Part shown: positions 1 to 23,926 of the stretch, piece after piece | Position numbering within the stretch: the stretch's first letter is position 1 | How the letters are laid out: every line of letters begins with the position of its first letter | From: Alkalinema sp. RU_4_3 | Lineage (GTDB): Bacteria; Cyanobacteriota; Cyanobacteriia; Leptolyngbyales; Leptolyngbyaceae | Direction of reading: 5' to 3' | Assembly (NCBI GenBank): GCA_012031975.1 | Contig: JAAUSA010000059.1 | Location: 1-23,926, forward strand | Length of the DNA stretch: 23,926 nucleotides | Notes under the pieces: generated by a model | The model's database searches: none | The model's input: the letters and a program-made list of their open reading frames with translations, nothing else | What the model was told of the DNA's origin: nothing | Translations under genes and position numbers: made by a program

Positions 1-2225
1 TAACGATACCATCTGGGGTGATTTCGATGGCTTGGGCTTCGAGGAGGGGTGGGGCGGGTGGGGTTTGGGCGGTGGGTTTTTGGGTGGGGCGATGACCTCC
101 GATCGGTCGTTGCTTGCTGCCCAAAGGGCTTAGACCATCGTTTTGGGATGTGGTGACAAGTTCGACTTGGATGGCGTCTTGGTGGAGGGCTTCGCTGGGT
201 ATGGGGGGGAAGCCGCCTCGGCCTGTGATCACGAATCGGCTGGCGCTTTTGCGGATGGCGGAGCAGTCGGGGAGGAATAGGCGGGTGGCGTCGGTGGGGA
301 TTGGGGGAGGGGATGAGGAGGCCTCGGCTGGGATCGATATTCGGGGTGTCTATGGTGGTGCTGCCTGCGGATCCGAAGGTGGAGCTGACGGTGATGTCGC
401 TGAGGGGGGTGAGTTGGGGGCGATATTGGATCCCGAGGAGGTTTTGGGCCATGATTCTGATGTTGCCGCCTCGGCCTGTGAAGGCGTTGGCGCTGATGTT
501 GCTGTTTTCTTTGGGGATGGCGAGGATGAAGTTGCCTTTGAAGGTGATGTTGCCGCCGTCGCCTCCGGCTTGGGCAGTTCCGGCTGTGGTGGAGATGGTG
601 CTGCCTTGGCGGAGGAGGAGGAAGTCCTGGACTTGCAGCGCAATATTGCCACCTTGACTGGATTTCGTTGTGGCTGAGATGTTTGATCGGTTGGTTAGGG
701 TGATCGAGCGCGCCTGTACGGTAATAGTACCTGCATTACCTGACCCTTCACTGGCTGCACCGATCTCACTCTTATCTTGAACCAGCAGCCTACCTGTATT
801 GATCGAGATATTCCCTGCATTGCCAGGGCCTTGCGTGGCAGTAAAAATGAATCCCCCCCTCAAATCTACAATATCAGATGCATTAACCGTGAGATTGCCA
901 CCTTCTCCTGATACGGGCAAGCTCCGTCCCTGACCAGAAACAGACAGCGCCTCAGCGGATAGAGCACCACCATCCCGAATAATGAGTTTTTTTGTATTAA
1001 TAGTCAGATTGCCCGCCTGTCCAGTGCTTCCCGTAAAACTAGATAAGTTGCTAGAGGTTTCCGAGATTGGATCTCGCCCTCCGATTTCAACAGACTCAGA
1101 TGCACTTACGCTCAATTGCCCACCTGTATTGCTTCCTAAGGTTCCAGCAAAGATTTGTGCGCCATCTCGAACAATTAATTTCTGGGTCTCGATAATTAGA
1201 TCACCTGCCTTGCCATCCCCAAAACTCAAGGTCGATAAATTCCCAAAGGCTACGGTTCTAAGCACTTCCAAGGACTCAGAAGCATTCACGATTAAGTTAC
1301 CTCCGGCTTTGTCGCCCTGACTAAACGCCGTAATTTGAGCCCCGCCATTGACAAAAATGGATCTGCCCCAAATTTGGATTGGACCACTTCCCTCTCCGCT
1401 GGTGTTGACTGTCGCCCCATTCGTGAGGGTAACATTGGCTCGATCGATTGCATCAGGAAAACTCAAGTGCAAATTATTGCTCACTAAGCTCAACCCCACG
1501 GTCCCTGCTCCAGAGACTGCACCCAATTCCACCCGTCCCTCTGTCGCATTCACGCCACCACCGTCTAGAGTCACAGATCCCCCTAGTAATAGTAAACTTT
1601 GCCCGTCAGGGACTTGCAGCCCCTGTCCACCCGATGCTAGCGGGGTGCGTGAACGATTGACAATAGCTGCAATCCCCATTTGCTTGAATAGGAAAGCGGA
1701 GGGGTTTACTGTGAGCAGTGCTGGGGGTTCTGGTGTGGACGTACTAAAGAGCCCCTGCGTTCCAAATTGAATTGCAGGGGCTGTGGTCGCAATAAATGAA
1801 CCGTTCACATCTAGCCTTGCATTGGCTCCGAAGAGGATTCCATTGGGATTGAGTAGGAATAGATTGGCATTGCCGCCTGTTACCCCTAAGGTTCCTTCAA
1901 TATTAGAAGGATTGACGCCCGTGACTCGACTGATAATATTGCTAATACCGATCGGGTTTTGAAAGTAGAGACTTTCTCCTGGAGCGATACTGAGGTCGAG
2001 AAAGCTATGAAACAAATTGCTCCCACGAATCGCCCCACCTTCGATCTCAGATCGTCGCGCTCCGTTACTGGTGGCTGAAGTCACAACCGACGGTTCAGCA
2101 CCTAAGGTGCTGTCAGGCTTTACCTGAGCTAGGGCAGGGTGTTCAGCAATAGAAGAGGGACTTGCGATGGCTAAGAGAACTAAGCCGCTTCTCCCCCAGT
2201 CCTTGCTGATCTTTCTTGGGGACAT
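1..2225 (-). CDS. Two-partner-secretion (TpsA) / filamentous hemagglutinin-family exoprotein, 3-prime partial (runs off the window start). It has a signal peptide, an N-terminal TPS haemagglutination-activity domain, then beta-helical repeats. There is an apparent frameshift near 320-345.
   Basis: Hand translation of the minus strand from the ATG at 2225-2223 gives MSPRKISKDWGRSGLVLLAIASPSS...GGAIRGSNLFHSFLDLSIAPGESLYFQNPIGISNIISRVTG...NPSNIEGTL, the classic TPS/FHA N-terminal domain. Downstream repeats such as GNLTINTKKLIIRDGGA, GNAGTITVQARSITLTNRSNISATT and GGNITFKGNFILAIPKENSNISANAF are typical FHA beta-helix units. The C-terminal motif IDTPNIDPSRGL is in one frame, and ...DATRLFLPDCSAIRKSASRFVITGRGGFPPIPSEALHQDAIQVELV continues in the adjacent frame. 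The plus-strand ORFs 114..677, 982..1320 and 1348..1770 are antisense artefacts of this gene. Confidence 0.8.
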   Translation of the reverse strand, partial: MSPRKISKDWGRSGLVLLAIASPSSIAEHPALAQVKPDSTLGAEPSVVTSATSNGARRSEIEGGAIRGSNLFHSFLDLSIAPGESLYFQNPIGISNIISRVTGVNPSNIEGTLGVTGGNANLFLLNPNGILFGANARLDVNGSFIATTAPAIQFGTQGLFSTSTPEPPALLTVNPSAFLFKQMGIAAIVNRSRTPLASGGQGLQVPDGQSLLLLGGSVTLDGGGVNATEGRVELGAVSGAGTVGLSLVSNNLHLSFPDAIDRANVTLTNGATVNTSGEGSGPIQIWGRSIFVNGGAQITAFSQGDKAGGNLIVNASESLEVLRTVAFGNLSTLSFGDGKAGDLIIETQKLIVRDGAQIFAGTLGSNTGGQLSVSASESVEIGGRDPISETSSNLSSFTGSTGQAGNLTINTKKLIIRDGGALSAEALSVSGQGRSLPVSGEGGNLTVNASDIVDLRGGFIFTATQGPGNAGNISINTGRLLVQDKSEIGAASEGSGNAGTITVQARSITLTNRSNISATTKSSQGGNIALQVQDFLLLRQGSTISTTAGTAQAGGDGGNITFKGNFILAIPKENSNISANAFTGRGGNIRIMAQNLLGIQYRPQLTPLSDITVSSTFGSAGSTTIDTPNIDPSRGLLIPSPNPHRRHPPIPPRLLRHPQKRQPIRDHRPRRLPPHTQRSPPPRRHPSRTCHHIPKRWSKPFGQQATTDRRSSPHPKTHRPNPTRPTPPRSPSHRNHPRWYR

Positions 2226-10503: not shown

Positions 10504-12408
10504 TTGCCCTACATGGGTGAGCTTAATACACTAGATATGGAAACCGCTTCATTCTTTTCCATCTTGCCTGCTGCCTCGCTTCAAAAGCAGACCAAGATTG
10601 TCCGACGTTGTAATCAATTTTTGGCAGCTTTAGTCGCTTCTACGGCCCTCTCCCTCGCGCCCCCAGCCAAGGCCCAGCCGCCCATACTACCAGCGGCTCC
10701 GCCCCCAATAGCAGGGGTCAAAACACCGATCGCCATGATTCCCGTTGACCTGGTTGTCGTACCTGTGGCGATCGCTGGTGTGATTCTCCTCGGCCTGACC
10801 TGCGGCGGTCTCGTGGTGATCGGCGAACGCGAAGTTGGGATTGTGGTGAAGAAGGTCTCCTTTGCTGGACGCCGCCTGCCACCGGGACGACTGATCGCCC
10901 TCGAAGGTGAAGCGGGCTACCAGGCCGACACCCTCGCTCCTGGCTGGCATTGGGGCTATTGGCCCTGGCAGTTTGGAGTACGTAAGGAATCTGTGCTGGT
11001 GATTCCCCAGGGCGAAGTGGCCTTGATCGTGGCCAATGATGGCACCTCGATTCCCCTGGAGCGGATTTTGGGGCAGGTGGTGCCCTGCGACAATTTCCAG
11101 GATGCCCGCAAATTCCTAGCAAACGGCGGCGAAAAGGGCCGTCAGCTAGGCTTTCTCACCGCCGGAACCTACCGGATCAACACCGCCCAATTCAAAGTGA
11201 TCACGGCTAGCAACGCTGACCAACATGGCATGCGGCCCGAGCAGCTCAACGTCTACTCCGTCACCTCCGACAAAGTCGGCATCGTCTCCACCCTCGACGG
11301 GATGCCGATCGAATCCGGGGAAATCGCCGGAGCCGTCGTGCCCGACCATGACAATTTCCAAAACGGCCAGAAATTCATCCAGCAAAACGGACGCCGGGGT
11401 TTGCAGCAGCAGATCCTGCTGTCGGGGTCCTGGAACCTCAACCCCTGGTTTGTGCAGGTGGAGCAAGTGCCGATGACCGAAATTCCGATCGGCTACGTCG
11501 GCGTCGTGGTTTCCTTCGTGGGGGATGCGCCGGATGATGTGAGTGGGGCGGGCTTTACCCATGGCAACCTGGTGCTGGTCGGCCACAAGGGCGTTTGGGT
11601 CACGCCGCTTTACCCTGGCAAACATCCAATCAACACCCGCGTCATGAAGGTGGAATTGGTCCCGACCATTAATATTGTGCTGAACTGGGCCAATCGCACC
11701 GAACGTCACCACTACGATGCCAACCTAGCGGCCTTGACCGTGCGCTCCAAGGACGGCTTTGCCTTTGCCCTAGAGGTCTCCCAAATCATCCATGTCGGAG
11801 CCCTCGACGCCCCCAAGGTGATCTCCCGCGTCGGCTCCATGCAAAACCTCGTAGACAACGTCCTCGAACCCAGCATCGGCAACTATTTCCGCAACTCGGC
11901 CCAGGATTACACGGTGCTCGACTTCCTAAATGCGAGAAGCGATCGCCAGTCTGAAGCCGCCGAATACATCAAAACTGCCCTACGGATCTACGACGTCCAG
12001 GCGATCGACACCCTAATCGGCGGCATCCAGCCCCCCGCCGAACTGATGCAGACCCAGACCGAACGGAAGCTCGCCGAGGAAAAGCGCAAAACCTACGAAG
12101 TCCAACAAATGGCCCAAACCCAACGCCAGCAGCTCGTACGAGAAACAGCCCTGGCGGATATTCAGCAGGAACTGGTCCAGTCCGAGCAGAGCGTCAATAT
12201 CGCCGAACTCAAGGCCAATGCCCAGATTAAACAGGCCACCGGGGAAGCAGAATCCACCCGTCTCAAAGCCTCCGGGGATGCCGAAGCGATCCGCGCCACC
12301 GGGAACGCCAAGGCTGAAACCTACCAGGCCGGGGTGAATGCCCTGGGTGGCCAGAGCTATACGGCCATGCAGTTGATGCAGATTATTGGCGATCGCACGT
12401 CCGGCTGA
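10504..12408 (+). CDS. Large flotillin-family / SPFH (band-7) domain protein with a C-terminal E/A/Q-rich coiled coil. The real start is possibly the internal ATG near 10724 (MIPVDLVVVPVAIAGVILLG, a TM helix). The C-terminus appears to continue in another frame.
   Basis: The TM segment followed by GEREVGIVVKKVSFAGRRLPPGRLIALEGEAGYQADTLAPG...CDNFQDARKFLANGGEKGRQLGFLTAGTYRINT is the pattern of the roughly 650-aa cyanobacterial flotillin family. The C-terminal ...AEAIRATGNAKAETYQAGVNALGGQSYTAMQLMQIIGDR is typical of flotillins. Confidence 0.7.
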   Translation: MPYMGELNTLDMETASFFSILPAASLQKQTKIVRRCNQFLAALVASTALSLAPPAKAQPPILPAAPPPIAGVKTPIAMIPVDLVVVPVAIAGVILLGLTCGGLVVIGEREVGIVVKKVSFAGRRLPPGRLIALEGEAGYQADTLAPGWHWGYWPWQFGVRKESVLVIPQGEVALIVANDGTSIPLERILGQVVPCDNFQDARKFLANGGEKGRQLGFLTAGTYRINTAQFKVITASNADQHGMRPEQLNVYSVTSDKVGIVSTLDGMPIESGEIAGAVVPDHDNFQNGQKFIQQNGRRGLQQQILLSGSWNLNPWFVQVEQVPMTEIPIGYVGVVVSFVGDAPDDVSGAGFTHGNLVLVGHKGVWVTPLYPGKHPINTRVMKVELVPTINIVLNWANRTERHHYDANLAALTVRSKDGFAFALEVSQIIHVGALDAPKVISRVGSMQNLVDNVLEPSIGNYFRNSAQDYTVLDFLNARSDRQSEAAEYIKTALRIYDVQAIDTLIGGIQPPAELMQTQTERKLAEEKRKTYEVQQMAQTQRQQLVRETALADIQQELVQSEQSVNIAELKANAQIKQATGEAESTRLKASGDAEAIRATGNAKAETYQAGVNALGGQSYTAMQLMQIIGDRTSG

Positions 12409-12723: not shown

Positions 12724-13368
12724 ATGTTGATAGAATCTCCTCCAAAACCGATCGGTGAAAAGCGCCTCACTTTCCATAACCTGACTTGGCCTGCCTTCAA
12801 GCAGATTCATAGTCTGCTGGCCGCCAATACCCGCGCCCGCTTCACCTATGATCATGGCACGCTTGAAATCACCATGCCCCTGGAAATCCACGAACGATCG
12901 GCCCGCTTAATTGAACGTTTTATCCTAATTCTTGTGATGGAAATGGGCTTGAAACTTAAAACCATGGGTTCTACGACCCTCGATCGCGAAGATCTCCTCA
13001 AAAGCGCTGAGCCCGATAACGGCTACTACATTCAAAATTATGCCCAGGTGGCTGACCATGAAATCGATCTCGATATTGATCCGGCTCCCGATCTAATTGT
13101 TGAAGTAGATATCACCCACACCGATTTGAACAAAGATAGTCTCTATGCTTCCATGGGCGTGATGGAGTTTTGGCGATTTGACGGTAAAAACTGGCGGATT
13201 CTCCAGCTCCAGGATGGTGAATATGTGGAGGGCGATCGATCGCCCACGTTTGCTCTTGTCTCTAAATCCGATCTCTATGAATTCCTGAAAATTGCGTTTC
13301 GCGACGAAATTGCTGCTGAAATGGACTTCCGACAGCTCATTCGTCAGCGATTGCAAGCATTAAATTAG
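12724..13368 (+). CDS. Uma2-family (DUF820) putative restriction-endonuclease-like protein
   Basis: 214 aa. TLEITMPLEIHERSARLIERF...PDLIVEVDITHTD...EFWRFDGKNWRILQL matches the abundant cyanobacterial Uma2 family. Confidence 0.85.
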   Translation: MLIESPPKPIGEKRLTFHNLTWPAFKQIHSLLAANTRARFTYDHGTLEITMPLEIHERSARLIERFILILVMEMGLKLKTMGSTTLDREDLLKSAEPDNGYYIQNYAQVADHEIDLDIDPAPDLIVEVDITHTDLNKDSLYASMGVMEFWRFDGKNWRILQLQDGEYVEGDRSPTFALVSKSDLYEFLKIAFRDEIAAEMDFRQLIRQRLQALN

Positions 13369-18535: not shown

Positions 18536-18585
18536 GATGGTTTTTGAGGCGGTTTTTGAAGCGGTTTTCGAAGCGGTTTTCGAGG
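18536..18585. repeat. Four tandem copies of a roughly 12-bp unit (CGAAGCGGTTTT)
   Basis: ggcggtttttgaagcggttttcgaagcggttttcgaggc, seen directly. Confidence 0.8.
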
Positions 18586-18605
18586 CATTGTGCGATCGAT
18601 CCATA

Positions 18606-18675
18606 GTGTAGAGTAGGAAGTGTAGAGTAGGAAGTGTAGAGTAGGAAGTGTAGAGTAGGAAGTGTAGAGTAGGAT
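18606..18675. repeat. Five tandem copies of the 14-bp unit GTGTAGAGTAGGAA (last copy ...GGAT), located upstream of the HsdR-N-like gene
   Basis: gtgtagagtaggaa x4 + gtgtagagtaggat, seen directly. The minus-strand ORF 18477..18695 is an artefact of this repeat. Confidence 0.9.
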
Positions 18676-18731: not shown

Positions 18732-19337
18732 ATGGCTTACAGCGATTTTAAGACGGTTGGCTCGGTTAAGGCGGCCTTTGGACTGACCACGATCGAATCT
18801 GTTCAGTTTCTCCCACAGGTGCCTCCAGTGGCTCCAGGTGAAATTCTGACGGCAGTTTTGGCGGAGAATTTACCGTTGGCGACGGCTAGTGGGAGTGAGA
18901 AGGCGCGATCGGAGTTGATTATCAGTCCTGTTTTGGTGGAGGTGAGGCGGCAGCTCGATCGCAAGATTGGGCTATTTTCTGGGGAGGATTTTACGGTTGA
19001 TCCGGAGGCAAAGCTGAGTGGACGGTGTGATTTTTTGATTAGTCGATCGATCGAACAGCTTGAGATTGAAGCTCCGGTGGTGGTGTTGATTGAGGCAAAG
19101 CAGGCAGATTTGAAGTTGGGGTTGGGGCAATGTATGGCTGAGATGGTTGCGGCTCAGCGGTTTAATCAAGCTAGGGAGAAGCCTCTTCCGGTGATTTATG
19201 GTTGTGTGTCGAGTGGGATTCTCTGGCGGTTTTTGAAGTTGGAGGGGACTGTGGTGACGATCGATCTGACGGATTATGCGATTACGCCTGTCGATCGGAT
19301 TTTGGGTTATTTGACGTGGATGGCGGAGAAGGGTTAA
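18732..19337 (+). CDS. Restriction-endonuclease-like (PD-(D/E)xK) protein that resembles the HsdR N-terminal domain family (HSDR_N-like stand-alone domain)
   Basis: 201 aa. RCDFLISRS...VVVLIEAKQADLKLG (D..EAK nuclease-core-like) and PVIYGCVSSGILWRFLKLEG match the pattern of the small cyanobacterial HsdR-N-like proteins from memory. Its codon usage (T/G-ending) differs from the core genes. Confidence 0.55.
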   Translation: MAYSDFKTVGSVKAAFGLTTIESVQFLPQVPPVAPGEILTAVLAENLPLATASGSEKARSELIISPVLVEVRRQLDRKIGLFSGEDFTVDPEAKLSGRCDFLISRSIEQLEIEAPVVVLIEAKQADLKLGLGQCMAEMVAAQRFNQAREKPLPVIYGCVSSGILWRFLKLEGTVVTIDLTDYAITPVDRILGYLTWMAEKG

Positions 19338-19352
19338 AACGAAATGGTGGGC

Positions 19353-19402
19353 GGTGGGTAATGCCCACCCTACGGTTGGATGGAAGGGTGGGCATTGCCC
19401 AC
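19353..19402. terminator. Two similar hairpins between convergent genes: GGTGGG-TAATG-CCCACC at 19353-19369 and GTGGG-CATTG-CCCAC at 19388-19402. They may be a bidirectional terminator or a small hairpin repeat.
   Basis: Stems read directly. U-tails are weak (aaattttgaa downstream). Confidence 0.35.
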
Positions 19403-19431
19403 ACAATTGCATGGCATTCTCAAATTTTGAA

Positions 19432-21069
19432 TTACTGTCTGATGATAGACCCTAAGCCTGGCGTATTATCTAATATTTGAATAAGATTGTGATGCCACAT
19501 GGCTGAAATTCTATCAGCACGGTCTATATCTGATGAAACTATCTGATTAATCTCAAGGTCTGACATCATTAGTTGTTCCCTTAAGCCAAGCCCAATGATT
19601 GAATTTAACAGTTTTCCTTGTCTGCTGGTATTTGACCCAGGACCTATTTCTACGTGAGCAACGATTGGATCGATGACGCTACTATGAATGCCGTTTCTCA
19701 GAATTTCTACAGTGTTAGTCACGACATCTGCGCCCTTGAAATATAATCCGGCAACAATTTGAGGCGAGATCCAAGAGCCACGACTAATACAGCTCCATAG
19801 TTCTTGTTCGATCGCCGTGGATCTTTCTTGGAGTGTCAGATAAGAAATAAGTGCTGCTATATGATAGCGCCAATTGTCGGTAGCCAAAAGCCTGAGAGTA
19901 TCTTCGGTCCATGACTTTTGCAATGGCAATTTTGATAGCTCAATAACTGATTTATGGGCTTTATCTACGGCCCCGCCAAGATGAAGCAATCTGAAATAGC
20001 TTGTATCTCTGTAAAAGAGATCATAGCAACCGGAAGCGATAGAATTCATAGGGGTGGCAGTTGCTACATTAATATCTTCAAACTGTTTCATCAGGTCCTG
20101 AACATGGGGATTCGATGTGCCGTAACTGACGATCGCAACATCCAAATCAATATTTCGATACAAGCTCAAGGCACGGTAAATGGCTTTCATAATCCAATCG
20201 GTTTCATTGCCAAAGGCCCCACCGCCGAGAAGCGTTAGAAATACTTGGTTGTTGCCCGTTTTCTTGGCGTTGAGGATAGCGGAGCAGATTGTGGCTTCGT
20301 AGGATGCTTCTAAAATTAACTTGGCAAAACTGGCCCATAGCGATCGGGAATAGGCAGTATAGGCCACAGGTAGCGCGGAACAGTAGGCTTGAGAAACAAA
20401 GTGCTGAACATTATCGAGGGTCACTTCTGTATCCCATTGGATGCCAATGCGTAATTGCTGACGCAGTTCATCACGTTCGGTTTCATCAAGGATTTGCAAG
20501 TGACTAGAAATTTCAGCTAGACCATTTGAGGTAGGCAAAACATAGCCATTTTGCATTCTCCACAGATGGCCATCGGTATTGCCTAAAGCAGCACCAAGGT
20601 CGGCGAGACAGTCTACTTGATTGTTGGCAGATTGACCCATTTGGCCGTTGACGGGGGCAAAGTAGTTGCGATAGATGGTGCCTGCTCCAGCAGCGATCGC
20701 ACAAGCAGGTCCTTGGGTCGGGTCATTGTCATAGATGCCGATGCCCTGCTCAGGCGTGACGTTGGGTGAGACCATTTCTAGGAGATTGAATTGGGAGGCC
20801 ACTTGGAAGAGGGCATTGGCGTTGGCCGGATCGGTGTGGAATTTCTGGATGTTGCCCCTGACCTCACGTAGGGATAGCTCACCGGGTTGAGGGCCACTGG
20901 CTTGGACCCGTTTTCTCAATTCGGCTAGGGATGGTGTTTCTAGGTGACCGCAGGTGAACGTTTTTCCATTGACCTGGGATGTCAGTGCGGTGCCGTCGAT
21001 CGCAATGTTCCTATGAACTTGCTGGGGAGACTGTTCTGGAAAACCTGTCAGTGCTTCAAACCAATCCAT
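19432..21069 (-). CDS. Orphan 545-aa protein of unknown function, likely two domains. The N-terminal roughly 330 aa carry Gly-rich loops GPACAIAAGAGTIY and LLGGGAFGNETDW, reminiscent of macro/PARG-like or SLOG-like nucleotide-binding folds. The C-terminal roughly 200 aa are unassigned.
   Basis: Long clean ORF, low GC (about 45%), no HIP1-type codon bias. The motifs were noted by eye only and no confident family assignment is possible. Confidence 0.6.
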   Translation of the reverse strand: MDWFEALTGFPEQSPQQVHRNIAIDGTALTSQVNGKTFTCGHLETPSLAELRKRVQASGPQPGELSLREVRGNIQKFHTDPANANALFQVASQFNLLEMVSPNVTPEQGIGIYDNDPTQGPACAIAAGAGTIYRNYFAPVNGQMGQSANNQVDCLADLGAALGNTDGHLWRMQNGYVLPTSNGLAEISSHLQILDETERDELRQQLRIGIQWDTEVTLDNVQHFVSQAYCSALPVAYTAYSRSLWASFAKLILEASYEATICSAILNAKKTGNNQVFLTLLGGGAFGNETDWIMKAIYRALSLYRNIDLDVAIVSYGTSNPHVQDLMKQFEDINVATATPMNSIASGCYDLFYRDTSYFRLLHLGGAVDKAHKSVIELSKLPLQKSWTEDTLRLLATDNWRYHIAALISYLTLQERSTAIEQELWSCISRGSWISPQIVAGLYFKGADVVTNTVEILRNGIHSSVIDPIVAHVEIGPGSNTSRQGKLLNSIIGLGLREQLMMSDLEINQIVSSDIDRADRISAMWHHNLIQILDNTPGLGSIIRQ

Positions 21070-21197
21070 GGACCCCTCTTGATAATTGGCGATATTCTCA
21101 TGTTAGACGACAGAACCAGATTTATGACATGAACCATTACCTCGGGACTTCTGGCGATAGCTTGCTGCACTATTATCCATCAGAATGATGCAGGAAT

Positions 21198-21230
21198 GCG
21201 ATCGCTCACCTCTAGAAAATGAGCGATCGC
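21198..21230. promoter_or_regulatory. Inverted repeat of two HIP1-containing 11-mers (GCGATCGCTCA-N11-TGAGCGATCGC) in the divergent promoter region between the 545-aa gene and the astacin gene
   Basis: Read directly. Confidence 0.4.
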
Positions 21231-21478
21231 CTGGAAATCACCGAACTATCACAGTCTTACACAAACTGAAAATCACAGGGGATCGAACCGTTTGGCTGTT
21301 TTGAACTACACTAATTAGAACACTACTAACAAAAATAACTGTATCAATGATGTTATCGCTATCTCTGTCATATAGATATCGTTACTAATATCAAAATTTA
21401 GTCAACTATAGCATCGCTATACAAGGTATTATTGCCACTGTCACCGTAAATCAATAGTGATAATTAAGACAAAGATGT

Positions 21479-21526
21479 CGTACGGCTTTTGGGCTGTTTA
21501 AGCGTACGGCTTTTGGGTTGTTTAAG
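21479..21526. repeat. Tandem duplication of a 24-bp unit (CGTACGGCTTTTGGGCTGTTTAAG x2) upstream of the astacin gene
   Basis: Read directly. Confidence 0.8.
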
Positions 21527-21630
21527 TTAGGTTACAAAACCAGATACATTCCACAATTCTCTTACTATGGGGGAATGAACATACTTCTGTTCCTATTCTT
21601 TAAATAAATATTTCAGAGGTTGACTACGCT

Positions 21631-22983
21631 ATGGCATTACAGAATGAACCTAGTGATCAGAACCAATCTGCGTCCGACAAAGCCAATCTTGCTGTTTGGT
21701 TTCGCACATCGGCAGAAGAGCCAAAAGTAGGATTTATTGCGGGAAATACGTTTGACCTAAAGGAAGTCACGTATTCTGCGATCGATGGAGAAGCTATATT
21801 TGAGGGTGACATCTCCTTCGGATCCGTTGAAGAGATGGAAGCGCTGGCAGAAAATGTCCAGCGTGGTGAGTTTGGCGTGGGCCTCACTGGAGGGCAATTT
21901 CGATGGCCGAATGGCCTCATCCCATACGAGATCGATCCAAGTCTTCCGAATCAACAGCGTGTTATCAATGCTATTCAACATTGGATCGCTAATACACCAA
22001 TTCGATTTGTGCAGCGCACAGCGGCTAATGCTGCACAATTTCCCAACTATGTACGCTTTGTCGATCGCAATGCCTGTTTTTCTCAAGTAGGTATGCGTGG
22101 AGGTATGCAGGAAATTTCCCTAGGACTGGGATGCAGCACGGGTTCTGCTATCCATGAAATTGGCCATGCCGTTGGATTATGGCATGAACAAAGTCGAGAG
22201 GATCGCGATCGCTTTGTCCGCATTTTGTGGCCGAATATTGCAACTCAGATGCGCCACAATTTTGACCAGCATATTGCTGATGGGGATGATATTGGTGCCT
22301 ATGACTTTGGCTCAATTATGCATTACCCATCGAGTGCGTTCAGTGTCAATGGACAGCCTACGATTGAAACGATCGGTGGACAAGCCATTGGCCAACGGAC
22401 AGGGTTAAGTGCGGGAGATATTGCTGCAGTTCGGGCAATGTATGGTGTTGGCTGGGAATCGCTTGGCGGTGTGCTGAGTTCTGGTCCTGATGTATGCTCC
22501 TGGGCTTCTGGGCGACTGGATGTGTTTGTCCGAGGCACGGATAACGCCCTTTATCATAAGTGGTTTGATGGGGGTTGGTCTGACTGGGAGTCCCTTGGCG
22601 GTGTGCTGACTTCAGATCCAACCGCTGTATCCTGGAGCAATGGCAGAATTGATGTGTTTGTCCGAGGCACAGATAATGCCCTTTATCATAAGTGGTTTGA
22701 TGGGGGTTGGTCTGACTGGGAGTCCCTCGGTGGTGTACTGAGTTCTGGTCCTGATGTCTGCTCTTGGGCTCCAGGGCGACTGGATGTGTTTGTCCGAGGC
22801 ACAGATGATGCCCTTTACCATAAGTGGTTTGATGGGGGTTGGTCTGACTGGGAGTCCCTTGGTGGTGTGCTGACTTCAGATCCGAGTGCTGTATCCTGGA
22901 GCAATGGCAGAATTGATGTCTTTGTGCGGGGTACAGATAATGCACTGTTCCATAAATGGTTTGATGGGGCCTGGCGACCTTAG
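21631..22983 (+). CDS. Astacin-family (M12A) zinc metalloendopeptidase zymogen without a signal peptide, fused to four tandem 44-aa Trp-rich lectin/beta-propeller-blade-like repeats
   Basis: HEIGHAVGLWHEQSREDRDRF is the astacin HExxHxxGxxHE zinc motif and SIMHY is the Met-turn. The N-terminal FEGDIS matches the astacin pro-peptide aspartate-switch motif. The N-terminus MALQNEPSDQNQSASDK has no hydrophobic signal. The C-terminus has 4 x (WESLGGVL.S.P...SW..GR.DVFVRGTD.AL.HKWFDGGWSD). Confidence 0.85.
   Translation: MALQNEPSDQNQSASDKANLAVWFRTSAEEPKVGFIAGNTFDLKEVTYSAIDGEAIFEGDISFGSVEEMEALAENVQRGEFGVGLTGGQFRWPNGLIPYEIDPSLPNQQRVINAIQHWIANTPIRFVQRTAANAAQFPNYVRFVDRNACFSQVGMRGGMQEISLGLGCSTGSAIHEIGHAVGLWHEQSREDRDRFVRILWPNIATQMRHNFDQHIADGDDIGAYDFGSIMHYPSSAFSVNGQPTIETIGGQAIGQRTGLSAGDIAAVRAMYGVGWESLGGVLSSGPDVCSWASGRLDVFVRGTDNALYHKWFDGGWSDWESLGGVLTSDPTAVSWSNGRIDVFVRGTDNALYHKWFDGGWSDWESLGGVLSSGPDVCSWAPGRLDVFVRGTDDALYHKWFDGGWSDWESLGGVLTSDPSAVSWSNGRIDVFVRGTDNALFHKWFDGAWRP
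22453..22980 (+). repeat. Four tandem 132-bp DNA repeats (copies 1/3 and 2/4 nearly identical, i.e. a duplicated 264-bp pair) encoding the 44-aa blade-like repeats
   Basis: Near-identical DNA seen directly at 22453-22584, 22585-22716, 22717-22848 and 22849-22980. The minus ORF 22358..22945 is an antisense artefact. Confidence 0.9.
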
Positions 22984-22992
22984 AGATCCAAA

Positions 22993-23051
22993 CATCACGA
23001 TCCCTGCCCTTAAATATTTTGGCGGTTAGGGATCGTGAGAAACGTGATGTT
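22993..23051. terminator. Imperfect inverted repeat (AACATCACGATCCCT ... AGGGATCGTGA-gaaac-GTGATGTT) just after the astacin stop codon. It is a possible terminator or regulatory hairpin.
   Basis: Read directly. The loop is large and the U-tail poor. Confidence 0.3.
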
Positions 23052-23089
23052 CTCGGATTGCCACTATTCCTAACTTTGGATCACCAATC

Positions 23090-23449
23090 ATGTCCATGCA
23101 ATGTCTTGTAGAAGGTGAGATTGCATTCGAGAATACAGGTGCATCATTTGTGGGTGCAACAGCCTATATTCGCCTTGAGGCTGCTAATCAAACTGATGCG
23201 GCATCCAGCATTATTGCTGAGCAAGTTATCCCAGATGTCTCCCATGAAGCAGGAGATTCTCAAACGCTAATCATCAGATTGAGTGGCCAGATTCCCAATG
23301 AAAAGACAAGCTGTATTGTCACAGTCCATATTGATGTGGATGGAGATAGGCAAGTGAGTCAAGGTGACTATATCAACATGGAAAGTTACCCAGTCATAAC
23401 CTATGGTCATCCTCAGCAGATCTCAATATCTGTCCGGCAAGTTAGGTGA
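23090..23449 (+). CDS. Hypothetical 119-aa protein encoded immediately downstream of the astacin gene. It may be a cognate partner or inhibitor; this is speculative.
   Basis: Complete ORF with the same strand and low-GC composition as its neighbours; no signal peptide. Confidence 0.45.
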   Translation: MSMQCLVEGEIAFENTGASFVGATAYIRLEAANQTDAASSIIAEQVIPDVSHEAGDSQTLIIRLSGQIPNEKTSCIVTVHIDVDGDRQVSQGDYINMESYPVITYGHPQQISISVRQVR

Positions 23450-23531
23450 AAGATAAACTGGGCCTCGGATGGTGAACAGCTATCTTTGTTCTGCTGGATG
23501 CGGTTATAATGGCTAAAATTATCTGTAAATC

Positions 23532-23697
23532 CTAGAGAAGACTCTTCCGGTGATTTATGGTTGCGTGTCGAGTGGGATTCTCTGGCGGTTTTTGAAGTTG
23601 GAGGGGACTGTGGTGACGATCGATCTGACGGATTATGCGATTACGCCTGTCGATCGAATTTTGGGTTATTTGACGTGGATGGCGGAGAAGGGTTGAG
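23532..23697 (+). pseudogene. Orphan 3-prime fragment (last roughly 55 codons plus stop) of an HsdR-N-like gene. It is about 97% identical to 19172..19337 and forms a roughly 165-bp direct repeat around the 19.34-23.53 kb block.
   Basis: Base-by-base comparison shows 3 substitutions (tgtgtg/tgcgtg, cggatt/cgaatt, taa/tga). Identity begins at ...CTCTTCCGGTGATTTATGG and ends at GGCGGAGAAGGGTT. There is no upstream homology or start codon. Confidence 0.75.
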
Positions 23698-23926
23698 GAC
23701 TTCTGGAAAATTTTCCTACCTCTCCAAAATCTGTTGATAACACTGTTGGCAATTCATGACTCCTTAGGTGAATTCAGTCATTGATGATAGTGTTGTCTGT
23801 TAGAAGCACGGTCTGTTTGTTTACAGGTTTTGAGAGTTTGGATCATATTTGTTTGAGGGGAAAGATAATTCGGGGGGCCCTTTCCCCCCGCAAAAGAGCG
23901 CTTTCTGGGAGGACGTTACCGCCGTC

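What the first reader, a model, noticed from the sequence alone, without database searches (positions are those of the whole stretch)
19172..23697. Low-GC 4.2-kb block bounded by about 165-bp direct repeats, inserted at the 3-prime end of an HsdR-N-like gene
The intact HsdR-N-like gene ends at 19337. Its last roughly 165 bp recur at 23532-23697 as an orphan fragment with no 5-prime part. Between the two copies lies DNA of clearly lower GC (about 45% against 55-65% in the core), with few HIP1 sites and different codon usage. It encodes three genes with no housekeeping role: a 545-aa orphan, an astacin-lectin fusion and a 119-aa protein. This arrangement is what integration into the 3-prime end of a target gene produces, as seen with tRNA-targeting islands, but I see no integrase or transposase. 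The block may be a decayed or non-autonomous integrative element, or a cargo cassette exchanged by recombination between paralogous HsdR-N-like genes. It is my best candidate for an undescribed accessory module.
Basis: partly seen in the sequence, partly recalled or inferred. Interest (0 to 1): 0.78.

Follow-up and report, generated by a model that had tools for sequence, protein, structure and literature searches.

The report
Duplicated gene end brackets accessory genes
A cyanobacterial nuclease-like gene has had its last 160 bases duplicated 4.4 kb downstream, and the DNA between the copies is a patchwork of accessory genes that most likely arrived by ordinary recombination, not as a new kind of mobile element.

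Summary
The core observation holds. Window 19176-19335 recurs at 23535-23694 (160 nt, 98%). It is the 3' end of an intact 201-aa gene, the second copy has no 5' part, and the DNA between is compositionally deviant (GC3 0.37-0.51 against 0.62-0.82). Two details are wrong. HIP1 density in the block equals that of the rest of the window. The "545-aa orphan" is a fusion of a macro/PARG-like domain from a very large conserved family with a HEAT-like domain that is also found fused to canonical Macro domains.

The block is not one element. In the closest relatives the 201-aa gene and the macro-like gene are already convergent neighbours, 14 nt apart, with no duplication seen. The astacin gene and the 119-aa gene form a separate conserved pair found elsewhere without either of the other genes. 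There is no integrase, transposase, tRNA or terminal inverted repeat.

The orphan copy keeps the TGA stop that all nine relatives have, and it carries three changes from the state most relatives share. I read it as the displaced original gene end. My best reading (about 0.45) is a homology-anchored insertion using the 201-aa gene as anchor. An e14/icd-like integrase scar and a decayed second paralogue remain possible. No empty site could be found. This is an ordinary scar and of modest interest.

The parts
18732..19337 (+). Intact 201-aa gene of a PD-(D/E)xK nuclease-fold family (D101 ... E121-A-K123). It is the target or anchor gene.
   Evidence: The ORF is. It matches the PADLOC PD_DExK profile at E 3e-51. 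There is no Pfam or NCBIfam hit. There are 7679 homologues, mostly 201 aa and nearly all cyanobacterial, with several per genome.
19176..19335 (+). Repeat copy 1: codons 149-201 of the intact gene, followed by a TAA stop.
   Evidence: At the three coding positions where the copies differ it keeps the state found in most relatives, but its stop codon (TAA) differs from the TGA of all nine relatives.
19354..19402 (.). Hairpin with an 18-bp stem between the convergent genes. It may be a bidirectional terminator or a small palindromic insert.
   Evidence: dG is -43 kcal/mol and z is -4.9 for 19335-19435. The arms are seen. It is absent from all related loci.
19432..20076 (-). C-terminal 214 codons of the 545-aa ORF: an all-helical, HEAT-like 'X' domain fused in frame to the macro-like gene. 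GC3 is 0.37.
20077..21069 (-). N-terminal 331 codons of the 545-aa ORF: a macro/PARG-like domain. In the closest relatives this gene is the convergent neighbour of the 201-aa gene.
   Evidence: All 8000 scored candidates match, at 66-79% identity among the 120 listed. An invariant G282-x-G284-x-F286-G287-N288 loop (LGGGAFGN in this protein) is seen. The model has pLDDT 78 and pTM 0.85, and Foldseek's top matches are bacterial PARG, AF1521 and YmdB at E 1e-4 to 1e-3.
21070..21630 (.). AT-rich (38.5% GC) divergent intergenic region with two HIP1 sites and a 24-nt tandem repeat at 21479-21526.
   Evidence: It holds only two short ORFs (40 and 69 aa) that run in from the macro gene's 5' end and were not tested against any family library.
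21631..22983 (+). Astacin (M12A, LegP-like) metalloprotease with four DUF346 repeats at 22449-22974.
   Evidence: Pfam Astacin E 9e-49 and DUF346 x4. NCBIfam LegP scores 300.8 bits against a cut-off of 300. The motifs HEIGHAVGLWHE and SIMHY are in the translation.
23090..23449 (+). 119-aa protein, the conserved partner of the astacin gene.
   Evidence: Its homologues lie next to an astacin homologue in 12 of 19 metagenome loci, in either order. The only family hint is a weak DUF7282 match, E 0.026.
23535..23697 (+). Repeat copy 2: an orphan 3' fragment of the 201-aa gene (codons 149-201) with a TGA stop. I read it as the displaced original gene end.
   Evidence: It has the same TGA stop as all nine relatives. 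It carries three changes from the state most relatives share, one of them non-synonymous (Pro to Thr).
23698..23926 (.). Non-coding flank after the orphan fragment. A terminator-like hairpin on the minus strand at 23871-23890 suggests a convergent gene beyond the window end.
   Evidence: There is no long ORF in any frame. The flank has no match in any fetched locus.

Best explanation
The structure is the scar of a recombination event that used the 201-aa PD-(D/E)xK gene as a stretch of homology. No dedicated integrase was involved.

Inferred sequence of events. DNA arrived from a closely related cyanobacterium, or from a paralogous locus of the same genome. It carried the (end of the) 201-aa gene, its convergent macro-like neighbour (already fused to a HEAT-like domain), and an astacin/partner gene pair. 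It paired with the resident 201-aa gene downstream of the slr1957-family gene. One side was resolved by homologous recombination within the gene. The other side was joined at codon 148/149 of the resident gene. This join could have been an illegitimate (microhomology) join, as in homology-facilitated illegitimate recombination. Alternatively, the incoming piece had circularised and integrated by a single Campbell-type crossover.

Either route leaves an intact gene, then 4.2 kb of new DNA, then the resident gene's own last 160 nt with its native TGA stop and native downstream flank. The orphan fragment is now decaying.

What is shown: the anatomy, the mosaic make-up of the block, the older 201/macro adjacency, the independent astacin/119-aa pair, and the absence of recombinase genes.

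What is inferred: the donor, the direction of the event, and the recombination route.

Consequence (inferred): two 160-nt direct repeats at 98% identity make the block deletable by RecA-type recombination. That would restore a single gene and release a 4.36-kb circle able to re-enter any sufficiently similar copy of the gene.
For: (1) The repeat is exactly the coding 3' end. Similarity starts inside the gene at an arbitrary codon and stops at the stop codon. This is expected if homology is supplied by the gene itself.
(2) The 201-aa and macro-like genes lie tail to tail, 14 nt apart, in L008, L011 and L012. These are the closest relatives of the window's 201-aa protein (95-95.5% amino-acid identity) and among the closest for the macro-like gene (78%; L009's copy, at 79%, has no 201-aa neighbour). 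They sit in at least two different outer contexts. L006/L007 retain the spacer and about 50 nt of the macro gene's end. The left part of the 'insert' is therefore the gene's old neighbour, as expected of a donor locus that shares the anchor gene.
(3) The orphan copy has the TGA stop of all nine relatives, while the intact copy has TAA. All three coding differences between the copies are departures, in the orphan, from the state most relatives share, and one is non-synonymous.
(4) No integrase, transposase, tRNA, Rfam family or inverted repeat was found in or beside the block. The 201-aa and astacin genes have no relatives on viral contigs.
(5) The block is a mosaic. GC3 is 0.51 for the macro part, 0.37 for X, 0.40-0.46 for astacin and 0.37 for the 119-aa gene. 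The astacin/119-aa pair occurs by itself in 12 of 19 loci. In L044 it matches a low-GC cyanobacterial background.
(6) HIP1 density equals that of the host, which points to a cyanobacterial donor.
(7) Against L011/L012, divergence of the 201-aa gene falls from 14.6% (nt 1-444) to 4.3% (nt 445-606). The switch lies between nt 443 and 477, at the repeat's 5' edge (Fisher p 3e-4; fourfold sites 0.54 against 0.88, p 0.002). This suggests the last 160 nt have a recombination history of their own.
(8) The family is multi-copy and decays: several copies per genome and an internally deleted pseudogene in L063/L064.
(9) The mechanism and its orphan-fragment signature are described for T6SS effector-immunity arrays and Rhs loci (PMC5361080).
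Against: No empty site and no donor locus were found, so direction and mechanism are inferred from one instance. The best genome relative of the flanking DUF6816 gene is only 61% identical and shares no synteny.

The two repeat copies differ at only 4 of 162 positions. A donor from a lineage as distant as L011 would give about three times more, so the donor must have been very close, or the copies have since been homogenised by gene conversion.

The microhomology at the right junction (AATC / CTAG) is short and could be chance.

The 5'/3' divergence contrast rests on few sites. Site patterns do not place the window's 3' end inside the L011 clade, so its direction is open.

The same anatomy is produced by integrases that target gene 3' ends (e14 in icd). 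An integrase acting in trans cannot be excluded. Natural competence of the host is unknown.
Confidence: 0.45

Rival explanations
1. Remnant of a site-specific integrative element that targets the 3' end of the 201-aa gene and carries a replacement gene end, as e14 and phage 21 do in E. coli icd. Its integrase would have been lost or would act in trans.
For: The anatomy matches icd - e14 - icdC: an intact gene whose last part lies inside the element, and an orphan C-terminal pseudogene at the far end (PMC13626634). The intact copy has a different stop codon (TAA) from all relatives, as if its end were element-borne. The block is compositionally deviant. A recombination breakpoint in the gene's history coincides with the repeat's 5' edge.
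Against: There is no integrase, excisionase or other phage or plasmid gene in the block, and the few short ORFs in its intergenic regions give no sign of a decayed one. The block is not a unit. The macro-like gene is the gene's neighbour in relatives with no second gene-end copy on those contigs (within 5.6 kb in L011), and the astacin pair travels separately. There are no relatives of the 201-aa or astacin genes on viral contigs. Other truncated family members in the database begin at various positions; the one whose locus I could examine is an internal deletion rather than an att-like fragment.
Confidence: 0.17
2. The fragment is what is left of a second, independent full-length paralogue that once lay downstream of the 119-aa gene in the same orientation. 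Its 5' 444 nt were deleted or overwritten, and gene conversion with the nearby intact copy keeps the two ends alike. The genes between were never 'inserted'.
For: The family is multi-copy within genomes. Its members sit in variable, accessory-rich neighbourhoods. Pseudogenes exist (L063/L064). The macro-like gene is an old neighbour of the intact copy.
Against: The copies are 97.5% identical including synonymous sites, closer than the gene is to any relative in that stretch (at most 95.7%), so recent conversion must be assumed. No trace of the 5' part remains. None of the relatives' contigs shows two copies. The sharp compositional difference of X, astacin and the 119-aa gene still needs an acquisition event.
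Confidence: 0.2
3. Assembly artefact: two paralogous loci were joined through the shared 160 nt.
For: The window ends 229 nt after copy 2. The Logan assembly of the same organism breaks at the repeat (L001 starts at 19306) and just before the tandem repeats upstream of the 201 gene (L043 ends about 150 nt short of them).
Against: A mis-join through a repeat cannot create the junction at 23534/23535, where unique DNA downstream of the 119-aa gene meets the middle of the gene. That junction must exist in reads. L001 independently links the TAA-ended gene end to the block. The copies differ at four positions, so they are distinct loci in the data.
Confidence: 0.03

Closest known systems
Homology-facilitated illegitimate recombination / displacement arrays (V. 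cholerae T6SS effector-immunity modules, Rhs and CDI 'orphan' 3' regions)
   Same: A conserved gene serves as the homologous anchor. New DNA is added downstream of it, and the old 3' part is pushed downstream and left as an orphan. No integrase is involved (PMC5361080).
   Different: In those systems the displaced 3' ends are variable toxin tips, kept with immunity genes under selection. Here the two ends are 98% identical and encode nothing polymorphic. Only one displacement is seen, not an array. The cargo is not a toxin-immunity pair of the anchor gene.
e14 / phage 21 integration into the 3' end of icd (icd - prophage - icdC)
   Same: An intact protein-coding gene, an inserted block, and an orphan C-terminal pseudogene as a direct repeat. 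Excision would recombine the two ends into a chimeric but functional gene (PMC13626634).
   Different: e14 is a coherent prophage that excises site-specifically upon SOS induction and, from general knowledge, encodes its own integrase. Here no recombinase or phage gene is present, and the block is a mosaic whose first gene is the anchor gene's old neighbour.
tRNA/tmRNA-targeting genomic islands
   Same: Direct repeats made of the 3' end of the target gene bracket low-GC accessory DNA.
   Different: The target here is a protein gene, and there is no tRNA in the window. There is no integrase next to the attL-like end. The repeat, at 160 nt, is longer than typical att cores (from general knowledge).
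Campbell-type single-crossover integration of a circular DNA carrying an internal gene fragment
   Same: It predicts exactly this product: the homology is duplicated as direct repeats around the inserted DNA, with one complete and one truncated gene copy.
   Different: It is known mainly from laboratory suicide-vector integrations (from general knowledge). A natural circular intermediate is hypothetical here.

Membership tests
Integrase-mediated integrative element (genomic island / e14-like prophage remnant) | Direct repeats formed by the 3' end of the target gene at both ends | tested here: met
   19176-19335 against 23535-23694, 98% identical. Both copies end at the stop codon.
Integrase-mediated integrative element (genomic island / e14-like prophage remnant) | Tyrosine or serine recombinase gene (or recognisable remnant) inside the element, usually next to one att site | tested here: not met
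   The three block ORFs and the 201-aa gene give no recombinase hit in Pfam, NCBIfam, PADLOC or PHROGs. The only other ORFs in the intergenic stretches 21070-21630, 22984-23089 and 23450-23534 are 40-69 aa and were not tested.
Integrase-mediated integrative element (genomic island / e14-like prophage remnant) | The bounded block behaves as one unit: found as a whole elsewhere, or absent as a whole from an empty site | tested here: not met
   The macro-like gene is next to the 201-aa gene in L008, L011 and L012 without astacin, the 119-aa gene or a second repeat on those contigs. The astacin/119-aa pair occurs alone in L044-L062. No empty site was found.
Integrase-mediated integrative element (genomic island / e14-like prophage remnant) | Excision and circular form | not testable with these tools
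   This needs the reads of SRR11470445 or PCR.
Transposon / insertion sequence | Terminal inverted repeats, a transposase, and a short target-site duplication | tested here: not met
   No inverted-repeat pairs of at least 30 nt in the window. No transposase domain. The duplication is 160 nt, not 2-15 nt.
Homology-anchored insertion (HFIR or Campbell single crossover) | One boundary lies in sequence homologous between donor and recipient (a conserved gene) | tested here: met
   The anchor is the 201-aa gene. Relatives share 82-88% nucleotide identity over the ORF, apart from one outlier at 73.5% (L004), and similarity stops within about 6 nt of the ORF's ends against most of them.
Homology-anchored insertion (HFIR or Campbell single crossover) | The donor arrangement (anchor gene next to the first inserted gene) exists in relatives | tested here: met
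   201 gene -> <- macro-like gene, 14 nt apart, in L008, L011 and L012, with a remnant in L006/L007.
Homology-anchored insertion (HFIR or Campbell single crossover) | The other boundary is an illegitimate junction at a short microhomology | tested here: inconclusive
   The ragged AATC..CTA..GAGAAG similarity at 23523-23534 against 19164-19175 is compatible but too short to separate from chance.
Homology-anchored insertion (HFIR or Campbell single crossover) | A recipient empty site and an identified donor | tested here: inconclusive
   The genome scan found no close relative (at most 61% identity, no synteny). Look-ups of exact proteins found only the same organism.
PD-(D/E)xK nuclease superfamily, HsdR_N-like (the 201-aa protein) | D ... 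(D/E)xK catalytic motif in a family-level profile match | tested here: met
   PADLOC PD_DExK at E 3e-51 over residues 55-200. D101 and E121-A-K123 are in the sequence.
PD-(D/E)xK nuclease superfamily, HsdR_N-like (the 201-aa protein) | Match to Pfam HSDR_N / HSDR_N_2 | tested here: not met
   No Pfam family even at E 10. The only support is the name 'Type I restriction enzyme R protein N-terminal' that UniRef gives to some homologues.
Macrodomain / bacterial PARG-like (residues 1-331 of the 545-aa ORF) | Macro fold with a glycine-rich phosphate-binding loop | tested here: met
   Foldseek top hits are D. radiodurans and T. curvata PARG, AF1521, YmdB and viral macrodomains (E 1e-4 to 1e-2, probability 0.9-1.0, TM about 0.4-0.55). 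An invariant G282-x-G284-x-F286-G287-N288 loop is seen. Part of the model is poor: residues 94-126 have pLDDT below 50.
Macrodomain / bacterial PARG-like (residues 1-331 of the 545-aa ORF) | Sequence-profile membership (Pfam Macro PF01661 or the microbial PARG family) and ADP-ribose hydrolase activity | tested here: not met
   No Pfam, NCBIfam or PDB sequence hit. Activity cannot be tested here.
Astacin (M12A) metalloprotease | HExxHxxGxxHE zinc site and SxMHY Met-turn, with a profile match | tested here: met
   Pfam Astacin at E 9e-49 and NCBIfam LegP at 300.8 bits (cut-off 300). HEIGHAVGLWHE and SIMHY are in the translation.

The most novel reading that the evidence does not exclude
The conserved last 160 nt of the 201-aa PD-(D/E)xK gene family could be a recurrent landing pad. 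Under this reading, integrase-less circles of accessory genes that each carry this gene end are excised and re-inserted by host homologous recombination (or by a recombinase encoded elsewhere) among the many paralogues of filamentous cyanobacteria. That would amount to a gene-family-anchored cassette-exchange system. The evidence does not exclude it. The family is multi-copy. Its members sit beside highly variable accessory genes in every locus examined. Against L011/L012, divergence drops sharply at the repeat's 5' edge, and the 3' end is more conserved in most other comparisons too.
Probability: 0.08. Interest if true: 0.6.

Novelty: new member of a known kind. Interest (0 to 1): 0.27.

Why it matters
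As a mobile-element candidate it matters little. It is one more example of accessory genes added next to a conserved gene, leaving an orphan gene end behind.

It is useful in three smaller ways.

(1) It shows how integrase-free gene gain can mimic an integrative island, so scans that call islands from 'direct repeat plus low GC' should check whether the enclosed genes really travel together.

(2) It points to a very large, highly conserved, unannotated macro/PARG-like family, and to a HEAT-like domain that is repeatedly joined to macrodomains. These are candidates for ADP-ribose signalling or defence functions in cyanobacteria.

(3) It identifies a conserved astacin/small-protein gene pair, which could be a protease with its own inhibitor and can be tested directly.

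Tried and rejected
(1) Empty-site search. A scan of 185,579 species genomes with the neighbouring DUF6816 protein gave 30 loci, the best only 61% identical. None had LytB, slr1957, the 201-aa gene or any block gene nearby. This gave no test.

(2) Exact-protein look-ups. The 201-aa and 119-aa proteins are not on record. The 545-aa and slr1957-family proteins found only short contigs of the same organism.

(3) Further copies of the gene end. I looked in 12 loci around close homologues and found one copy per locus.

(4) Truncated family members in the database. The one whose locus I could read is an internally deleted pseudogene, not an orphan end beside an intact copy.

(5) Phage origin. The 201-aa and astacin genes have no relatives on viral contigs. 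Only the macro-like gene has two distant viral-contig relatives, with no other shared gene.

(6) Plasmid link. The 201-aa family occurs on 20 cyanobacterial plasmids as 'hypothetical protein', which was uninformative.

(7) tRNA, Rfam and terminator/promoter scans. There are no RNA genes, and promoter and terminator counts are at chance level.

(8) DarG-like reading of the macro + X architecture. Rejected: there are no PADLOC hits, and the Macro-X fusion proteins score as MacroD/YmdB-type deacetylases.

(9) Hairpin 19354-19402 as a dispersed repeat. It is not found in any other locus.

(10) Mosaic test of the 201-aa gene. The 5'/3' contrast is real, but site patterns do not fix its direction.

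(11) The afdb50 fold library was unavailable.

Full report
OBSERVATION

The window holds one long two-copy direct repeat: 19176-19335 and 23535-23694, 160 nt, 98% identical, 4359 nt apart. Copy 1 is the end (codons 149-201) of an intact 201-aa ORF at 18732-19337. Copy 2 has no 5' part. A gapped local alignment adds only a ragged AATC..CTA..GAGAAG at its 5' edge. The 300 nt before it resemble the first 444 nt of the gene no better than shuffled sequence does (score 19 against 18.9 +/- 2.3). Both copies run up to a stop codon, TAA at 19335-19337 and TGA at 23695-23697, and are unrelated beyond it.

The block 19338-23534 has 46.4% GC against 53.7% for the rest of the window. Its genes have GC3 of 0.37-0.51 against 0.62-0.82 for the housekeeping genes upstream. 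Its tetranucleotide deviation (0.274) is the highest of any 4.2-kb window.

HIP1 (GCGATCGC) is as frequent in the block (0.95 per kb) as outside it (0.96 per kb). The 545-aa ORF is not an orphan (see below).

An independent Logan assembly of run SRR11470445 reproduces 19306-22575 and the upstream genes. Its contigs break at or near the repeats. A mis-join through the repeat could not create the junction at 23534/23535, so I treat the structure as real.

WHAT THE GENES ARE

The 201-aa protein has no Pfam or NCBIfam match, even at E 10. It matches PADLOC's CRISPR-associated PD_DExK profile at E 3e-51 and carries D101 ... E121-A-K123. It belongs to a family of more than 7600 proteins, almost all 201 aa long and cyanobacterial, with several copies per genome. 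The family also occurs on cyanobacterial plasmids. 'HsdR-N-like' is acceptable only in the broad sense of this nuclease fold.

The 545-aa ORF is a fusion of two parts.
- Residues 1-331 belong to a very large family of proteins of about 330 aa. All 8000 scored candidates matched, at 66-79% identity among the 120 listed, including Desulfobacterales and Candidatus Amarolinea proteins. There is no profile or PDB sequence match. An AlphaFold model (pLDDT 78, pTM 0.85) matches bacterial poly(ADP-ribose) glycohydrolases, AF1521, YmdB and viral macrodomains. A glycine-rich G-x-G-x-FGN loop (LGGGAFGN in this protein) is invariant across the alignment.
- Residues 332-545 are absent from all those relatives, which stop at this point. 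This stretch has 127 homologues of its own, mostly stand-alone proteins of about 200 aa (best 67% identity). Two are fused to canonical Macro domains and one to a Peptidase_M50 domain. Its model (pLDDT 92) is an all-helical repeat that matches only generic HEAT/TOG/AlkC-like structures.

The 450-aa protein is an astacin, with HEIGHAVGLWHE and SIMHY motifs. Pfam gives E 9e-49, and NCBIfam LegP scores 300.8 bits against a cut-off of 300. It carries four DUF346 repeats.

The 119-aa protein has no family. Its homologues lie directly beside an astacin homologue in 12 of 19 metagenome loci, in either order.

IS THE BLOCK ONE ELEMENT? NO

In L008, L011 and L012, metagenome contigs whose 201-aa proteins are the closest to the window's (95-95.5% amino-acid identity), the 201-aa gene and the macro-like gene are convergent neighbours with 14 nt between their stop codons. 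They sit in at least two different outer contexts. No astacin gene, 119-aa gene or second copy of the gene end occurs on these contigs, which in L011 means within 5.6 kb.

L006/L007 still carry the 14-nt spacer and about 50 nt of the macro gene's end after their 201-aa gene, and then switch to a Peptidase_U32 gene. The 201/macro adjacency is therefore ancestral in this clade. The DNA just downstream of the 201-aa gene is repeatedly rearranged. Other members of the family are followed by quite different accessory genes.

In the window, 741 nt (19336-20076; a strong hairpin plus the X domain; GC 43%) stand where relatives have 14 nt and a stop codon.

The astacin/119-aa pair has its nearest relative (79% and 70% amino-acid identity) in L044. 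That is a low-GC cyanobacterial contig where the pair matches the local composition, and it has no 201-aa or macro-like gene nearby.

Nothing in or beside the block resembles an integrase, transposase or phage gene. There are no tRNA or Rfam genes and no inverted repeats. The 201-aa and astacin genes have no relatives on viral contigs.

WHICH COPY IS THE ORIGINAL?

The copies differ at four positions: 19182, 19205, 19298 and 19336. At the three coding positions the intact copy has the state shared by most or all of nine relatives, and the orphan departs from it. One of these changes is non-synonymous (Pro to Thr). This fits an untranslated fragment drifting. At the stop codon the pattern reverses: all nine relatives and the orphan have TGA, while the intact copy has TAA.

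The orphan is followed by non-coding DNA and a terminator-like hairpin of a convergent gene lying beyond the window.

I infer that the orphan and its flank are the resident gene's original end. From the stop codon onward, the DNA after the intact copy is the newcomer.

MECHANISM

The simplest account of all this is insertion anchored by homology in the 201-aa gene. Incoming DNA from a near relative or a paralogous locus carried the gene (or its end) with its macro-X neighbour and the astacin pair. One side recombined homologously within the gene. The other side joined the resident gene at codon 148/149. That join was either illegitimate (homology-facilitated illegitimate recombination) or the result of a single Campbell-type crossover of a circularised fragment. 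Both routes duplicate the homology as direct repeats and need no integrase.

The same logic, with orphaned 3' parts pushed downstream, has been proposed for T6SS effector-immunity arrays and Rhs loci (PMC5361080).

One further hint comes from divergence against L011/L012. The gene is 14.6% divergent over nt 1-444 but 4.3% over nt 445-606. The switch lies between nt 443 and 477, at the repeat's 5' edge (p 3e-4; fourfold sites 0.54 against 0.88, p 0.002). Within the L006/L008/L011 clade the two parts diverge equally. The last 160 nt therefore seem to have their own recombination history. The site patterns do not fix the direction of that exchange.

RIVALS

An e14/icd-type integrase scar gives the same anatomy (PMC13626634) and would explain the foreign stop codon. 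It must assume a lost or trans-acting integrase, and it conflicts with the non-unitary block.

A decayed second paralogue kept similar by gene conversion is possible, since the family is multi-copy and decays (L063/L064). It needs extra assumptions, and it still needs an acquisition event for the low-GC genes.

An assembly artefact is unlikely.

I could not find an empty site or a donor. The nearest genome relative of the flanking gene is only 61% identical and shares no synteny. The mechanism therefore remains an inference from one instance. My confidences are 0.45 for the homology-anchored insertion, 0.17 for the integrase scar, 0.20 for the decayed paralogue and 0.03 for an artefact. The remainder is left to unlisted histories.

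VERDICT

The repeat and the compositional oddity are real. The 'undescribed accessory module' is better described as a recombination scar around a patchwork of accessory genes. It is a new example of a known kind of event, not a new kind of element. Interest is modest. The by-products may be worth more than the scar itself: an unannotated macro/PARG-like family, a macro-associated HEAT-like domain, and an astacin/partner gene pair.

Noticed in passing
window 20077-21069 (-); homologues P0121-P0240: A very large family of proteins of about 330 aa with no Pfam, NCBIfam or PDB sequence match. It stays 66-79% identical across cyanobacteria, Desulfobacterales and Ca. Amarolinea. The predicted fold is macro/PARG-like, with an invariant G-x-G-x-FGN loop. 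Two relatives at 52% identity lie on IMG/VR viral contigs (L065, L066).
   Followed up: partly
window 19432-20076 (-); P0262-P0388: A HEAT-like all-helical domain of about 200 aa with no family assignment. It usually stands alone, but it is fused here to the macro-like domain and elsewhere to canonical Macro domains (P0271, P0277) and to Peptidase_M50 (P0269). The recurrent macro association suggests a functional link.
   Followed up: partly
window 21631-23449; L044-L062: The astacin (LegP-like) gene and a small protein of about 119 aa form a conserved neighbour pair in 12 of 19 metagenome loci, in either order. Neither protein has an obvious signal peptide by eye. The small protein could be a cognate inhibitor or partner. 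L002 and L005 show an analogous Peptidase_C1 + Inhibitor_I42 set downstream of their 201-aa genes.
   Followed up: partly
window 19354-19402: A near-perfect 18-bp-stem hairpin (GTGGGTAATGCCCACCCT ... AGGGTGGGCATTGCCCAC) lies between the convergent 201-aa and 545-aa genes (dG -43 kcal/mol and z -4.9 for 19335-19435). It is absent from all related loci.
   Followed up: yes
window 18732-19337 compared with L011/L012/L006/L008: Divergence of the 201-aa gene from L011/L012 drops from 14.6% (nt 1-444) to 4.3% (nt 445-606), with the switch at the repeat's 5' edge. Within the L006/L008/L011 clade the two parts diverge equally. This looks like a recombination tract, but its direction is unresolved.
   Followed up: partly
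L006 2106-2170, L007; L008, L011, L012: L006/L007 keep the 14-nt spacer and about 50 nt of the macro-like gene's 3' end after their 201-aa gene, followed by a Peptidase_U32 gene. The macro-like gene was replaced there. The L008 gene pair has a different upstream flank from L011/L012.
   Followed up: partly
L063 9900-10261 and L064: A 201-family pseudogene. The start codon and first 8 codons are joined to about codon 101 by an internal deletion, so only an 86-aa C-terminal ORF is called. It lies after a cobW-family (PF02492) gene that follows ureE and ureF.
   Followed up: yes
window 18539-18583 and 18605-18674: Two tandem arrays (12 nt x 3.8 and 14 nt x 5, the second perfect) lie just upstream of the 201-aa gene. 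The Logan contig L043 ends about 150 nt short of them. The first array shares a 14-nt exact match (GGCGGTTTTTGAAG) with the repeated gene end, which is probably chance.
   Followed up: no
window 10504-12408 and 20077-21069; L009: Homologues of the window's Band_7/SPFH gene (78% nucleotide identity) and of the macro-like gene (79% amino-acid identity) also lie within 10 kb of each other on L009 (MAG GCA_965193225.1). There they are in a different relative orientation and without a 201-aa gene.
   Followed up: no
window 1-700 and 2721-2797: The first 700 nt are 60% GC with very strong G-over-C skew (+0.4) and have no family assignment. A 30-nt exact direct repeat (CGATTATCAGACATTGCATTATCAGACATT) occurs at 2721 and 2768.
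   Followed up: no
window 12724-13368: A Uma2-family (PD-(D/E)xK) gene with GC3 of 0.51, also below the core genes. Uma2 genes also sit next to 201-family genes in L004 and L005 and overlap the 201-family match in four of the five Planktothrix plasmid hits.
   Followed up: no
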